The notes under the pieces were generated by a model. That model saw nothing but the letters and a program-made list of their open reading frames with translations. It was not told where the DNA came from and did not search any database. Made by a program: the position numbers and the translations under genes. From Escherichia coli (lineage in GTDB: Bacteria > Pseudomonadota > Gammaproteobacteria > Enterobacterales > Enterobacteriaceae), in NCBI RefSeq assembly GCF_003334255.1, contig NZ_QOWU01000079.1: a DNA stretch of 14,611 bases. One strand, 5' to 3'. The first letter of the stretch is position 1; each line of letters opens with the position of its first letter. Shown piece after piece: positions 2,588 to 3,246 of this stretch.

Positions 2588-2708
2588 TCTATTTTCCTCT
2601 GCACAATGTATTAGTTTCTCCACAAAACAGAGAAGAACACCTGCGGTGGCAGCCGCCCGGATGGATTGGGTTATGAGCCCGTCGTCCGGTGATGCTTTTC
2701 TCTGTTTT

Positions 2709-2756
2709 GTAAAAAGAGCGGTACCAGCCGGAAGCAAGTGTACAAACTGGTACCGC
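2709..2756 (-). terminator. intrinsic terminator in the PL leader, about 120 nt upstream of rdgC
   Basis: The minus strand reads GCGGTACCAG (2756-2747), a 19-nt loop, CTGGTACCGC (2727-2718), then TCTTTTTAC. The stem is a perfect 10 bp. The 3' arm plus tail reads CGCTCTTTTTACAA (2720-2707), which resembles boxA (lambda CGCTCTTA; rrn TGCTCTTTAACAA). Confidence 0.55.
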
Positions 2757-3183
2757 CAAAGCAGTGGCTGTTGTGGTGACCGGTGCTGATCTCCGGCTTG
2801 CGGTTATTTCAGACTCTCACGGGCGTTTAATTGCCCCGCCGAACAGCTCTTTTCCGCAATAGCTGCAATGTCTTTCGCGCATCAGCCTGCGCATTCACCA
2901 CAACGCTGAGAGCACTTAGCCAGTTACGGCACCACACTTTGTCGCGGCTCCATAAATGCTCTCATCGTTGCGTCCTGGTCTCTTCCCAGGCGTCAAACCG
3001 AATCGCCACGCTGGTTAGGCGTCTAATATCCTCATTGACTTGCACATTCCGGCTACCTGGTTTGTTTGCCCGAGCAAGGAGTGGATTGTCCCCTTTAACG
3101 TCCCCAGACCGCTAACGACGCATGTGCCATACGCCGTGTTACAACCAAATTTTGTTAGTACCTTGTTTGTAGGTCTGGAAAGA

Positions 3184-3236
3184 AAGATAAAATGAAGTTG
3201 CGCATTATGCAAGTGTTTTTATTGCGAGATATGCAA
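3184..3236 (-). promoter_or_regulatory. candidate OL operators and PL promoter
   Basis: Two 15-bp sites, TTGCGCATTATGCAA (3198-3212) and TTGCGAGATATGCAA (3222-3236), match the OR site TTGCGCGTTAAGCAA. On the minus strand, TTGCAT (3212-3207), a 17-bp spacer and TATCTT (3189-3184) form a possible PL reading toward rdgC. Confidence 0.5.
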
Positions 3237-3246
3237 TTTGGTGGGT

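What the first reader, a model, noticed from the sequence alone, without database searches (positions are those of the whole stretch)
2588..3240. About 600 nt ORF-free leader between PL and the first leftward gene, with no N homolog, a structured 5' domain and a terminator whose tail resembles boxA
Seen:
- No credible ORF lies between the OL/PL candidates (3184-3236) and the rdgC-like ATG (2587). The only track ORFs are a TTG-initiated 65-aa ORF starting inside the operator and an Arg-rich TTG ORF on the opposite strand. The best ATG ORFs on the minus strand are 13 and 25 codons.
- The first 75 nt or so of the predicted PL transcript can fold as a three-helix domain. CCAGACC (3178-3172) pairs with GGTCTGG (3110-3104). 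That stem encloses ACAAACAA/TTGGTTGT and ACGGCG/CGTCGT hairpins.
- Farther down lies a 10-bp GC stem followed by TCTTTTTAC (2756-2709). Its 3' arm plus tail reads CGCTCTTTTTACAA, close to boxA (lambda CGCTCTTA; rrn TGCTCTTTAACAA). A hairpin followed by boxA is the rrn order.
- On the rightward side, cro and the cII-like gene overlap. That leaves no room for a nutR/tR1 equivalent.

Established: lambda-type phages need N with nut sites to pass early terminators. HK022 instead uses cis-acting put RNAs just downstream of its early promoters.

Inference: leftward early expression here is either N-independent, through an RNA element (put-like or rrn-like), or the leader is a regulatory RNA in its own right. 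The slot is also where lambda carries rexAB.
Basis: partly seen in the sequence, partly recalled or inferred. Interest (0 to 1): 0.55.

Follow-up and report, generated by a model that had tools for sequence, protein, structure and literature searches.

The report
Structured RNA cassettes in prophage leader
The 600-base gene-free stretch after this prophage's early leftward promoter is a string of conserved, folded non-coding RNA modules, one cloverleaf-shaped and found in phages across the Proteobacteria; these modules sit among tRNA genes in other phages and are absent from the RNA family catalogue.

Summary
The leader (2588-3240, sense strand is minus) has no credible ORF. It holds a real hairpin plus U-tract terminator at 2756-2709.

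Two details fail on comparison:
- The outer 5' helix (CCAGACC/GGTCTGG) is not conserved. The CTGG pairs instead with CCAG at 3060-3057, with compensatory changes.
- The boxA-like tail is not conserved in relatives.
- No similarity to HK022 put was found either.

What is there is a mosaic of RNA cassettes that elsewhere sit in phage tRNA arrays (P1 ban leader, epsilon15-like phages, virulent Klebsiella and Salmonella phages):
- Module B (3140-2974), a roughly 170-nt RNA modelled with two pseudoknots.
- An 18-bp spacer hairpin (2970-2901).
- A cloverleaf-like element, "TLE" (2904-2772). It has a 7-bp closing stem, D-like and T-like hairpins with complementary loops, and a hypervariable insert.
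- The terminator, then a 25-bp hairpin before the first gene.

The TLE fold has strong covariation support: 105 sequences, 99.4% paired, and 12 of 16 pairs changed on both sides. Its core occurs in more than 100 genome stretches. Rfam has no match. It shares architecture and bridging members with STnc100, which a preprint groups with the Hfq-dependent sRNA PasD.

Most likely the PL transcript yields a discrete STnc100-like small RNA, or several, ending at the terminator. Function is untested.

The parts
3198..3236 (-). Candidate OL/PL: two operator-like sites TTGCATATCTCGCAA (3236-3222) and TTGCATAATGCGCAA (3212-3198). Weak -35 TTGCAT (3212-3207) and -10 TATCTT (3189-3184), 17-nt spacer.
   Evidence: Exact TTGC-N6-CGCAA matches occur here and at 4006-4020 on the PR side. 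The promoter hexamers were read from the sequence and fall below the consensus-scan threshold. This segment is immunity-specific: homology in cdtI and Stx2c phages starts only at about 3156.
3151..3180 (-). Immunity-specific first ~30 nt of the presumed PL transcript.
   Evidence: Replaced by unrelated sequence in other immunity groups, and by a tRNA in P1. CCAGACC varies without compensation.
2974..3150 (-). Module B, a conserved pseudoknotted RNA.
- P1: 3136-3132 / 3120-3116
- PK1: 3127-3122 / 3047-3042
- P2: 3107-3104 / 3060-3057
- P4: 3022-3019 / 3011-3008
- PK2: 3016-3013 / 2999-2996
- P5: 2990-2986 / 2978-2974
   Evidence: On 20 diverse sequences: 97.1% of cells paired, 9 pairs changed on both sides, slid controls 28-46%. 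PK1 never varies, so it is untested. Homologs lie directly after tRNA-Ile in the P1 ban leader and upstream of tRNA-Arg in phiV10. No Rfam match.
2901..2970 (-). Spacer hairpin: 18-nt arms 2970-2953 and 2918-2901 enclosing 34 nt.
   Evidence: Inverted repeat, 89% complementary. In 169 distinct loci the arm preceding a TLE finds a partner with at least 10 of 11 pairs in 97 cases, with many compensatory variants. The same arm plus CGTT precedes tRNA-Arg(UCU) in 15 distinct cases.
2772..2904 (-). Cloverleaf-like element (TLE).
- Closing stem: 2901-2896 / 2778-2773
- D-like hairpin: 2892-2888 / 2881-2877
- Variable insert: 2875-2800
- T-like hairpin: 2797-2793 / 2783-2779
- Possible loop-loop pairing: 2886-2882 / 2789-2785
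   Evidence: Covariance model R1 scores it 98.6 bits. On 105 sequences: 99.4% paired, 12 of 16 pairs changed on both sides, 76 cells, 0 of 500 shuffles as high, slid controls 26-52%. The loop-loop pairs are 93-97% paired on A1, with wobble-only changes.
2709..2757 (-). Intrinsic-terminator-like hairpin (5' arm 2756-2747, 3' arm 2727-2718) plus U-tract 2717-2711.
   Evidence: Folds at -22.4 kcal/mol. Conserved after the different element that occupies this slot in SfV, and in Lys8385Vzw. The full-length Rfam STnc100 match in SfV (L226 1836-2051) extends across this hairpin. Terminator-like hairpins lie within 130 nt downstream of 16 of 45 TLE hits, against 7 of 45 upstream.
2622..2710 (-). Long hairpin (arms 2710-2686 and 2646-2622) between the terminator and the ribosome-binding region.
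   Evidence: Inverted repeat of 25 nt, 80% complementary. Folds at -41.4 kcal/mol. Part of the block shared with SfV and many prophages.
2588..2625 (-). Gene-start boundary sequence TTGTGGAGAAACTAATACAT (2625-2606), followed by the SD region and the ATG of the RdgC-like gene (2587).
   Evidence: The 20-mer recurs at 4872-4891(+) and 9543-9562(+), each at a gene start: 3 copies against 0.01 expected. Homology to mEp460 ends at 2611, inside it.

Best explanation
**What it is.** The leader is a PL-driven array of non-coding RNA cassettes of the kind that phages carry in their tRNA gene arrays.

**Order of parts.** After induction, transcription from PL (inferred) passes through, in order:
1. Module B, a roughly 170-nt RNA modelled with two pseudoknots.
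2. A spacer hairpin.
3. A cloverleaf-like element (TLE) with an almost invariant core and a lineage-specific insert.
4. An intrinsic terminator.

**Most likely product.** The main product is most likely a discrete small RNA of about 190 nt, made of the TLE plus the terminator hairpin and U-tail. It would be cut from the longer PL transcript at or near the spacer. It is homologous in architecture to STnc100 and PasD, which are prophage sRNAs; PasD is Hfq-dependent. The variable insert would carry the specificity, and the conserved scaffold would provide folding, processing or stability. Module B may be released as a second stable RNA.

**Downstream genes.** RdgC-like and the other leftward genes would be expressed from the fraction of polymerases that read through the terminator. 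The 25-bp hairpin just upstream of the ribosome-binding region is a candidate processing or translation-control site.

**Shown:** the absence of ORFs, the RNA folds, their distribution, their positions next to tRNAs and repressor genes, and the conserved terminator.

**Inferred:** transcription from PL, processing, Hfq dependence, trans action and partial read-through.
For: **Structure**
- TLE: 105 sequences, 99.4% paired, 12 of 16 pairs changed on both sides. The outer three base pairs of the closing stem take at least 12 different complementary forms across genera.
- Module B. Spacer hairpin.

**Non-coding**
-.
- Insert lengths from about 30 to more than 150 nt, of at least 42 types, rule out a conserved ORF across the TLE.

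**Discrete gene-like unit**
- In Lys8385Vzw a near-consensus promoter flanked by palindromic operators is followed directly by the TLE, the same terminator and the same downstream hairpin, with no module B.
- In SfV the same slot and terminator hold a different family member. It matches Rfam STnc100 over the full 206-position model, terminator included, at 39.5 bits. It matches R1 at 33.4 bits.
- A cI-like S24 repressor gene lies upstream in 16 of 102 genome loci, on the same strand in 15.

**Link to known sRNAs**
- PasD is validated by Northern blot as an Hfq-dependent sRNA (PMC8550237). A preprint proposes that PasD and STnc100 share an ancestor but have different seeds (10.64898/2026.05.13.724894).

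**Precedents**
- Lambda PreS is an Hfq-dependent sRNA of the early left operon whose 3' end is the tL2a terminator (10.1101/2024.10.31.621285).

**Cassette nature**
- Module B follows tRNA-Ile in the P1 ban leader and precedes tRNA-Arg in phiV10.
- The TLE follows tRNA-Asn and tRNA-Thr in RCS47.
- The spacer precedes either a TLE or tRNA-Arg(UCU).
Against: - There are no expression data for this locus. PL itself matches the sigma-70 consensus poorly and was not found by the scan.
- The leader TLE does not reach any Rfam score for STnc100, even at E up to 10. The window's own STnc100 is aligned by R1 at only 13.4 bits. The family link therefore rests on shared termini, shared architecture and bridging members.
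- The U-tail has only five consecutive U. I recall this being short for a typical Hfq-binding sRNA (my own knowledge).
- Near-invariance of both strands of the D-like and T-like stems across Alpha-, Beta- and Gammaproteobacteria is more than a simple stability scaffold would need. It hints at a specific macromolecular partner.
- About two thirds of TLE copies have no terminator nearby.
- No target complementarity was found within the window.
Confidence: 0.5

Rival explanations
1. Cis-acting antitermination RNA. The TLE, or module B, folds on the nascent PL transcript, binds RNA polymerase and makes it resistant to the terminator at 2756-2709 and to later terminators. It would replace N in the way put does, but with an unrelated fold.
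For: - No N-like gene follows PL.
- In Lys8385Vzw the TLE starts a few nucleotides after the promoter, as putL does (PMC9378689).
- A terminator follows within about 20 nt, ahead of genes that must be expressed.
- Family members lie after a cI-like repressor gene (16 loci) or just upstream of a lysozyme-like gene (9 loci) in the genome loci. PasD maps near Q and the lysis genes (preprint 10.64898/2026.05.13.724894).
- The ultra-conserved core would fit binding to a universally conserved partner such as RNA polymerase.
Against: - No similarity to the HK022 early region.
- No second copy in the PR operon.
- PasD accumulates as a discrete RNA on Northern blots (PMC8550237), and the STnc100 Rfam model runs through a terminator hairpin.
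- Many copies sit inside tRNA arrays of virulent phages, with no nearby terminator.
Confidence: 0.15
2. tRNA mimic. The TLE is a tRNA-derived decoy or substrate. It would be handled by tRNA-processing enzymes and would serve to titrate or evade host tRNA-directed nucleases or other tRNA-binding factors, or simply to direct RNase P-type processing of the polycistronic RNA.
For: - The layout resembles a tRNA: a 7-bp closing stem, 2-3 nt, a 4-5-bp stem with an 8-nt loop starting with A, a variable region, and a 5-bp stem abutting the 3' strand.
- It occupies the same slot, after the same spacer plus CGTT, as tRNA-Arg(UCU). Both start GTGG.
- Neighbours are often tRNAs on the same strand.
Against: - ARAGORN and the Rfam tRNA model do not recognise it.
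- The T-like loop has 9 nt and lacks the TPsiC sequence.
- No CCA is encoded.
- The inserts are not anticodon-arm-like.
- Exchange was seen with only one tRNA species.
Confidence: 0.15
3. Inert recombination debris: a remnant of a tRNA array trapped between PL and the first gene, acting only as a long 5' UTR.
For: The region is mosaic, with breakpoints at module boundaries, and different phages carry different subsets.
Against: - Each module is kept at 95-99% identity across hundreds of prophages.
- Base pairing is maintained by compensatory changes across distant taxa. That is not expected of debris.
Confidence: 0.05
4. A hidden small protein is encoded in the leader, for example an Arg-rich antiterminator. 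One candidate is the GTG-initiated 37-codon frame ending ...RKRAVRRGN at about 2826.
For: I read an Arg-rich C-terminal frame from the sequence. The antisense ORF 2646-2789 hits PHROG 3651, of unknown function.
Against: - No codon periodicity of substitutions.
- The frame runs through the TLE core, whose inserts differ in length and sequence between relatives.
- No Pfam hit and no RefSeq gene call under the listed matches.
Confidence: 0.03

Closest known systems
STnc100 (Rfam RF02076) and PasD, prophage sRNAs of Salmonella and pathogenic E. coli; PasD is Hfq-dependent
   Same: - Same architecture: a closing stem beginning (G/U)GGUGAAU and ending CACC..., a first hairpin right after the stem, variable middle hairpins, a last hairpin abutting the 3' strand, then a terminator.
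- A family member occupies the identical slot with the identical terminator in SfV.
- Both are prophage-borne.
   Different: - The leader TLE has a different, far more conserved core (GCGCAGGCUGAUGCGC and GCCGGAGAUCAGCACCGG).
- It gets no Rfam STnc100 hit.
- Its core occurs in genomes well beyond Enterobacterales.
- It sits in the early left leader rather than near Q and the lysis genes.
- PasA, PasB and PasC are unrelated to it.
HK022 putL/putR antiterminator RNAs
   Same: An RNA element placed just downstream of an early promoter in a lambdoid phage that has no N gene at the usual place (PMC9378689).
   Different: - No sequence similarity.
- A different fold: a multi-helix junction with an insert, against two stem-loops of about 70 nt.
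- A single copy, with none in the PR operon.
- Relatives occur in tRNA arrays.
Lambda N leader (nutL, RNase III hairpin) and rrn boxA antitermination
   Same: A long untranslated leader between PL and the first gene, with a long hairpin just upstream of the first ribosome-binding site. The parallel to the RNase III site of the lambda N leader is from my own knowledge.
   Different: No N homolog. The boxA-like string is the 3' arm and U-tract of a terminator, and it is not conserved.
Lambda PreS (LPR1) sRNA
   Same: An sRNA produced from the early left operon whose 3' end is an internal intrinsic terminator (10.1101/2024.10.31.621285).
   Different: PreS is 68-88 nt, lies far downstream in the operon, and has no cloverleaf-like scaffold.
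P1 ban operon leader (dicF-like region, tRNA-Asn, tRNA-Thr, tRNA-Ile)
   Same: A repressor-controlled early promoter followed by a long non-coding array. It holds module B (87% identical over 115 nt, directly after tRNA-Ile) and two TLE-family elements.
   Different: P1 interleaves real tRNAs and the tciABC genes. The window has no tRNA.
GOLLD and ROOL large phage-associated RNAs
   Same: Structured non-coding RNAs of prophages, often next to tRNA genes (my own knowledge; PMC12286853 is in the library).
   Different: No Rfam match to either. The leader is modular, with modules that travel separately, rather than one large fold.

Membership tests
HK022-type put RNA | Sequence and structure related to putL/putR (about 70 nt, two stem-loops) | tested here: not met
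   blastn with word size 7 against HK022 22000-31500 gives only chance matches, best E 0.75. The conserved folds differ.
HK022-type put RNA | One copy downstream of each early promoter (PL and PR) | tested here: not met
   R1 finds one copy in the leader and none between PR and the replication genes. The inverted-repeat search finds only a 20-mer gene-start sequence shared by the two operons.
HK022-type put RNA | Binds the RNA polymerase beta' zinc-binding domain and suppresses termination in cis | not testable with these tools
   Needs transcription assays. The feature is taken from PMC9378689.
Lambda nut / rrn boxA antitermination site | Conserved boxA (GCUCUU(U)A core) in the transcript | tested here: not met
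   The core reads GCTCTT here, GTCCTT in SfV, GTCATT in Lys8385Vzw and GCCCTT in phiV10. The boxA-like spacer arm covaries with its partner.
Lambda nut / rrn boxA antitermination site | Cognate N-type protein encoded after PL | tested here: not met
   PHROG scans of 20 window ORFs give cI, cro, cII-like and Q-like proteins but no N. Genes left of coordinate 1 are not visible.
STnc100 (RF02076) | Score at or above the Rfam gathering threshold (47 bits) | tested here: not met
   No hit in 2400-3400 even at E up to 10. The window's true STnc100 at 12336-12541 scores 143 bits.
STnc100 (RF02076) | Closing stem, 5' hairpin, variable hairpins, 3' hairpin abutting the stem, then a terminator | tested here: met
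   Seen in the structure line of the Rfam alignment and in the R1 structure and alignments. The SfV slot element is hit by both models.
tRNA | Recognised by tRNA detectors (cloverleaf with anticodon arm, T-loop consensus) | tested here: not met
   ARAGORN finds no tRNA in the window. The Rfam tRNA model gives no hit at E up to 10.
Intrinsic terminator | G+C-rich hairpin immediately followed by a U-tract | tested here: met
   10-13 bp stem, -22.4 kcal/mol, followed by UCUUUUU. Conserved in relatives. It fails the simple scan, which only accepts loops of 3-8 nt.
Intrinsic terminator | Actually stops transcription | not testable with these tools
   Needs Term-seq or in vitro transcription.
Hfq-dependent base-pairing sRNA | Hfq binding, Hfq-dependent stability and a seed that pairs with targets | not testable with these tools
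   Rests only on analogy with PasD (PMC8550237). No convincing complementarity was found within the window.

The most novel reading that the evidence does not exclude
The leader exposes two undescribed classes of structured phage RNA.
- One is a cloverleaf-like scaffold. Its roughly 50-nt core is nearly invariant from Enterobacterales to Burkholderiales and Alphaproteobacteria, while its closing stem and its insert of about 30 to more than 150 nt vary freely.
- The other is a roughly 170-nt RNA modelled with two pseudoknots.

Both behave as interchangeable cassettes with tRNA genes in phage arrays. The sequence-level invariance of paired stems suggests a specific conserved partner (RNA polymerase, a tRNA enzyme, the ribosome) or catalysis, rather than a plain base-pairing sRNA. 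In that reading the scaffold would be a natural 'tRNA-scaffold' display system for hypervariable RNA, or an N-independent antitermination or anti-defence device. STnc100 and PasD would be degenerate members of the same superfamily.
Probability: 0.3. Interest if true: 0.85.

Novelty: new variant of a known kind. Interest (0 to 1): 0.68.

Why it matters
- Pieces of this leader are present in 2837 of 5426 complete E. coli genomes, and the full leader in 419. RefSeq leaves the listed matches blank, or phage records annotate spurious hypothetical proteins there.
- Recognising the leader as folded RNA cassettes would correct those annotations.
- It would add at least two well-supported RNA motifs to the catalogue.
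- It would connect the orphan sRNAs STnc100 and PasD to a much larger, phylogenetically broad family.
- It would give phage biologists a concrete candidate for how N-less lambdoid phages organise early leftward expression.
- It also shows that phage 'tRNA arrays' carry more than tRNAs.

Tried and rejected
- **Rfam.** Gathering threshold on the window, and E up to 10 on 2400-3400, give nothing in the leader. Relaxed scans of nine related loci give only tRNAs and sub-threshold noise for these elements.
- **Literature.** Full-text search for six core strings (DNA and RNA spellings) finds no paper. Searches for tRNA-like phage sRNAs find no description of this element.
- **Pas sRNAs.** I tested whether the TLE is PasA, PasB or PasC of EPEC E2348/69, using coordinates from the supplement of PMC8550237. 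R1 does not hit those loci. Only PasD1 matches STnc100, and below threshold.
- **HK022 put.** No similarity.
- **Protein-coding readings.** Pfam and PHROG scans and the periodicity test are negative.
- **A promoter downstream of the terminator.** The consensus scan finds none on the minus strand between 2709 and 2588. The same scan also misses PL, so this is weak evidence.
- **Target search.** Looking for complementarity of at least 11 nt between the leader RNA and the rest of the window gives only chance-level matches.
- **tRNA inside some inserts.** An insert such as L057 contains GGTTCGATTCC, but ARAGORN lists no tRNA near it, so I dropped the claim.
- **A closing helix for module B.** Pairing of GUUG with CAAC around module B is not consistent across lineages.
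Full report
**Layout.** The window is the immunity and early region of a lambdoid prophage.
- RdgC-like gene at 1670-2587 (minus strand).
- cI-like S24 repressor at 3293-3985 (minus strand), followed by its own terminator at 3271-3254.
- cro-like at 4083-4343, overlapping a cII-like ORF at 4336-4893.
- Rha/Ant-like regulator, replication genes, RusA, and a Q-like antiterminator at 11372-11779.

The finding concerns 2588-3240, read on the minus strand. 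Two exact copies of the operator-like motif TTGC-N6-CGCAA lie at 3236-3222 and 3212-3198, and a third lies on the PR side at 4006-4020. This fits an OL/PL region. The promoter hexamers (TTGCAT, 17 nt, TATCTT) are weak and were not picked up by the consensus scan.

**Checking the observation: what holds.**
- The region is free of credible genes.
  - Only short TTG or GTG ORFs are listed.
  - None has a Pfam hit, and one antisense 47-aa ORF hits a PHROG of unknown function.
  - RefSeq annotates nothing under the E. coli matches listed.
  - Phage records carry mutually inconsistent hypothetical ORFs on both strands.
  - Among 160 distinct homologous segments, the 196 variable positions fall 55/64/59 over the three phases, and indels abound.
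- The hairpin at 2756-2718 with its U-tract is real (-22.4 kcal/mol) and conserved.
- cro and the cII-like ORF overlap, as stated.

**Checking the observation: what fails.**
- The proposed three-helix 5' domain is what a single-sequence fold gives, but comparison does not bear it out.
  - CCAGACC and ACAAACAA lie in the first ~30 nt. That segment is specific to this immunity type, and CCAGACC varies (CCAGACA) without compensation.
  - GGTCTGG is conserved in P1, in epsilon15-like phages and in other immunity groups that have no CCAGACC.
  - Its CTGG (3107-3104) pairs with CCAG at 3060-3057, with compensatory changes (CG:10/UA:10; GC:17/AU:3).
- The boxA-like tail CGCTCTTTTTACAA reads CGTCCTTTTTACAA in SfV, CGTCATTTTTACAA in Lys8385Vzw and CGCCCTTTTTACAG in phiV10. 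It is therefore simply the 3' arm and U-tract of a terminator.

**The leader is a mosaic.** blastn against phage records splits it into blocks with separate distributions.
- The whole leader is 96-98% identical in mEp460 and in Stx2k and Stx2a phages.
- From about 3156 onward it is shared with cdtI and Stx2c phages, which have a different immunity region.
- 3150-3036 is 87% identical to P1 70691-70806. That stretch begins directly after tRNA-Ile in the C1-controlled ban operon leader.
- 3137-2898 is 83% identical to phiV10 and relatives, where it ends directly before a tRNA-Arg.
- 2917-2769 is 96% identical to a stretch just after tRNA-Asn and tRNA-Thr in the P1-like phage RCS47.
- About 42 nt (2916-2876) recur at roughly 92% identity in many unrelated virulent Klebsiella, Salmonella and Erwinia phages.
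- 2758-2610 is shared with SfV and many prophages.
- In E. coli, 2837 of 5426 complete genomes hold some piece and 419 hold most of the leader.

**The cloverleaf-like element (TLE, 2904-2772).** An exact 26-mer from the widely shared piece occurs in at least 120 IMG/VR contigs.
- The contigs share a 5' segment, GUGGUGAAUGCGCAGGCUGAUGCGCG, and a 3' segment, GCCGGAGAUCAGCACCGG(Y)CACCACA. These are separated by inserts of about 30 to more than 150 nt, of at least 42 unrelated types.
- The layout has five parts:
  - a closing stem;
  - 2-3 nt, then a 5-bp hairpin with the loop GGCUGA;
  - the insert;
  - a 5-bp hairpin with the loop AGAUCAGCA, which abuts the 3' strand of the closing stem;
  - the two loops can form five Watson-Crick pairs (GCUGA/UCAGC).
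- A covariance model built from 28 of these sequences (R1) finds the window copy at 98.6 bits.
- A scan of one genome per species with a 23-mer of the core returned 102 stretches.
  - They come from Enterobacterales, many Betaproteobacteria, other Gammaproteobacteria and two Alphaproteobacteria.
  - A few are MAGs labelled Coriobacteriia, Geobacteraceae, Phycisphaerales and Acidobacteriota.
- In these, the three outer base pairs of the closing stem change freely but stay complementary: UGU/ACA, GUU/AAC, GAG/CUC, UGG/CCA, GAU/AUC, UGC/GCA, GCA/UGC and more.
- On 105 model-aligned sequences, 99.4% of cells are paired and 12 of 16 pairs show changes on both sides (76 cells). No shuffle in 500 reaches the observed values, and slid controls pair at 26-52%.
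- Caveats:
  - The alignment is fitted to the model.
  - The D-like hairpin is fixed by the search string in most rows.
  - The loop-loop pairing is supported only by conservation and wobble changes.
- Neither ARAGORN nor the Rfam tRNA model recognises the element. 'tRNA-like' is therefore an analogy of shape and position, not of membership.

**The spacer and module B.**
- The TLE is preceded by an 18-bp hairpin (2970-2953/2918-2901).
  - Its consensus arms, GGUAAGAGCAYU and AGUGCUCUUUCC, covary in other loci: GTAAGCTGCTT/AGGCAGCTTTC, GTAACGACGCT/AGCGTCGTTAC, TTGAGAACACT/AGTGTTCTCAA and others.
  - 97 of 169 distinct loci have at least 10 of 11 pairs.
  - The 3' arm contains a boxA-like UGCUCUUU in many loci. 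Because it covaries with its partner, the pairing rather than boxA seems to be the constraint.
  - The same arm followed by CGTT precedes either a TLE or one tRNA species, tRNA-Arg(UCU). This holds for 15 of 110 distinct tRNAs in the fetched loci, against a background of 18 in 5000 windows.
- Module B (3140-2974) was collected with two further scans and aligned from 20 diverse members. My model has six helices:
  - hairpin P1: 3136-3132/3120-3116;
  - PK1, where the P1 loop GCACAU pairs with AUGUGC: 3127-3122/3047-3042, invariant and so untested;
  - P2: 3107-3104/3060-3057;
  - P4, with a 7-nt loop: 3022-3019/3011-3008;
  - PK2, where that loop pairs downstream: 3016-3013/2999-2996, with CACC/GGUG changing to AACC/GGUU;
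  - P5, with loop GAAGAGA: 2990-2986/2978-2974.

  Overall 97.1% of cells are paired, 9 pairs change on both sides, and slid controls pair at 28-46%.
- Module B can follow a spacer arm, a tRNA or a TLE. It therefore behaves as another cassette.
- The whole 593-nt leader folds more stably than its shuffles (z = -3.9).

**Relation to known RNAs.**
- Rfam finds three RNAs elsewhere in the window (STnc100, C4, isrK) but nothing in the leader.
- STnc100 nevertheless has the same plan as the TLE: a closing stem starting GGUGAAU and ending CACC..., a first hairpin, variable hairpins, a last hairpin abutting the stem, then a terminator.
- Bridging members exist.
  - In SfV the slot between the immunity region and the same terminator holds GUUGUGGUGAAUGC...ACCGGGAGGCACCCGGCACCACA.
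  - That element matches Rfam STnc100 over the full model, terminator included, at 39.5 bits (gathering score 47). It matches R1 at 33.4 bits.
  - Similar elements in P1 and RCS47 are hit by both models.
  - R1 aligns to the core of the window's own STnc100 only weakly (13.4 bits, E 0.06).
- What is known experimentally:
  - PasD is validated by Northern blot as an Hfq-dependent sRNA (PMC8550237).
  - A preprint argues that PasD and STnc100 share an ancestor but have different seeds (10.64898/2026.05.13.724894).
  - STnc100 has been detected by RT-PCR in vesicles of two STEC strains and lies downstream of stx2 in those strains (PMC12370729).
- The TLE is not PasA, PasB or PasC.
- No paper in the library contains the core strings.

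**Context that bears on mechanism.**
- In Lys8385Vzw a near-consensus promoter (TTGACA, 18 nt, TACATT) flanked by palindromic operators lies just downstream of the repressor gene. It is followed within a few nucleotides by the TLE, the same terminator, the same long hairpin and the first early gene, without module B.
- In 16 of the 102 genome loci a cI-like S24 repressor gene lies upstream of the TLE, on the same strand in 15. Other loci have a lysozyme-like ORF, an HD-hydrolase-like ORF or a RecT-like ORF downstream; I assigned these from the printed cluster sequences, not from a family search.
- A terminator-like hairpin lies within 130 nt downstream of 16 of 45 TLE hits, against 7 of 45 in the upstream control.
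- After the terminator in the window comes a 25-bp hairpin (2710-2686/2646-2622, -41.4 kcal/mol). Then comes a 20-mer, TTGTGGAGAAACTAAYRCAT, that recurs at two other gene starts.
- Lambda provides a precedent for an early-left sRNA ending at an internal terminator: PreS at tL2a (10.1101/2024.10.31.621285).

**Best explanation and rivals.**
- I think the leader is a PL-driven array of RNA cassettes. Its main product would be a discrete STnc100-like small RNA (TLE plus terminator), perhaps with module B as a second stable RNA. The leftward genes would be expressed by partial read-through (confidence 0.5).
- The folds, their distribution and the conserved terminator are shown. Transcription from PL, processing, Hfq dependence and trans action are inferred.
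- Cis-antitermination by the RNA (0.15) fits the position after PL, the missing N gene and the invariant core. It is opposed by the single copy, the lack of any put similarity, and the existence of relatives as discrete terminated RNAs.
- A tRNA-mimic role (0.15) fits the shape and the exchange with tRNA-Arg, but tRNA detectors reject the element.
- Inert debris (0.05) and a hidden protein (0.03) are disfavoured by the covariation and by the lack of codon signal.

**Novelty and verdict.**
The intuition that this leader is an RNA element in its own right is correct.
- The TLE is a distinct, very widespread and previously uncatalogued relative of the STnc100/PasD type.
- Module B is an uncatalogued pseudoknotted motif.
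- The placement of tRNA-array cassettes under an early lambdoid promoter has not, to my knowledge, been described.
- I rate it a new variant of a known kind, interest 0.68. A more novel reading remains open: a new class of partner-binding or catalytic scaffold RNA.

Noticed in passing
window 5250-5326 and 5351-5438 (+): isrK (58.9 bits) and C4 antisense RNA (80.7 bits) lie inside the mechanically listed 382-aa ORF 4890-6038. Its PHROG matches (Rha/Ant-like) start only at about residue 61-106. This looks like a P1/P7 immI-type c4-ant module placed next to a lambda-type cI/cro module, and the ORF start is probably wrong.
   Followed up: partly
window 12336-12541 (+): A full-length STnc100 (143 bits) lies about 550 nt downstream of the Q-like gene (11372-11779). 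It has the same closing-stem, first-hairpin and last-hairpin plan as the leader element. The prophage therefore carries two members of the same architectural superfamily, one in the early left leader and one in the late region.
   Followed up: partly
window 2606-2625 (-), 4872-4891 (+), 9543-9562 (+): The 20-mer TTGTGGAGAAACTAAYRCAT occurs three times (0.01 expected), each at a gene start (SD GGAG plus start codon). Homology to mEp460 breaks inside the leftward copy. It looks like a module-boundary or ribosome-binding sequence used in mosaic exchange.
   Followed up: partly
L004 (phage P1 AF234173) 1308-1407 and 1569-1690, + strand of the locus: The TLE model hits P1 at 64.6 bits, on the strand opposite to the annotated plp and upl ORFs and overlapping both. 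It hits again at 35.2 bits where Rfam gives a sub-threshold STnc100 match. The P1 ban leader thus reads: dicF-like region, tRNA-Asn, tRNA-Thr, TLE, STnc100-like element, tciABC, tRNA-Ile, module B, ban. The plp and upl gene calls may need review.
   Followed up: partly
L005 (phiV10) 2501-2818; L330, L332, L347, L364-L366: In epsilon15-like phages, module B plus the spacer hairpin form a structured 5' leader of roughly 250 nt for a tRNA-Arg(UCU) gene that has its own promoter-like site and terminator. The spacer arm precedes only this tRNA species among 110 distinct tRNAs examined.
   Followed up: partly
many loci, e.g. L006 2001-2014, L010, L017, L231, L245: The spacer 3' arm just upstream of TLEs usually reads AGUGCUCUUUCC, which contains the rrn boxA core UGCUCUUU. 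It covaries with its 5' partner, so pairing seems to be selected, but a dual role was not excluded. In the window it reads UGCUCUC.
   Followed up: partly
L057, L246, L274 (TLE inserts): Some TLE inserts contain T-arm-like strings (GGTTCGATTCC, GGTTCAACTCC, GGTTCGAGTCC) and look like nested tRNA-like pieces. ARAGORN listed no tRNA near the L057 copy; the other two were not checked.
   Followed up: no
L329 and L367 (IMG/VR contigs): GC-rich phage contigs carry a shorter RNA with the same hairpin loop UAUGGCACAUG and a downstream AAUGUGCCGAGCGG. It is possibly a minimal relative of module B that keeps the PK1 pairing.
   Followed up: no
window 2646-2789 (+): The antisense 47-aa ORF matches PHROG 3651 (unknown function, E 5e-27). 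This family probably stems from ORF calls such as cdtI orf40, made across this non-coding block.
   Followed up: no
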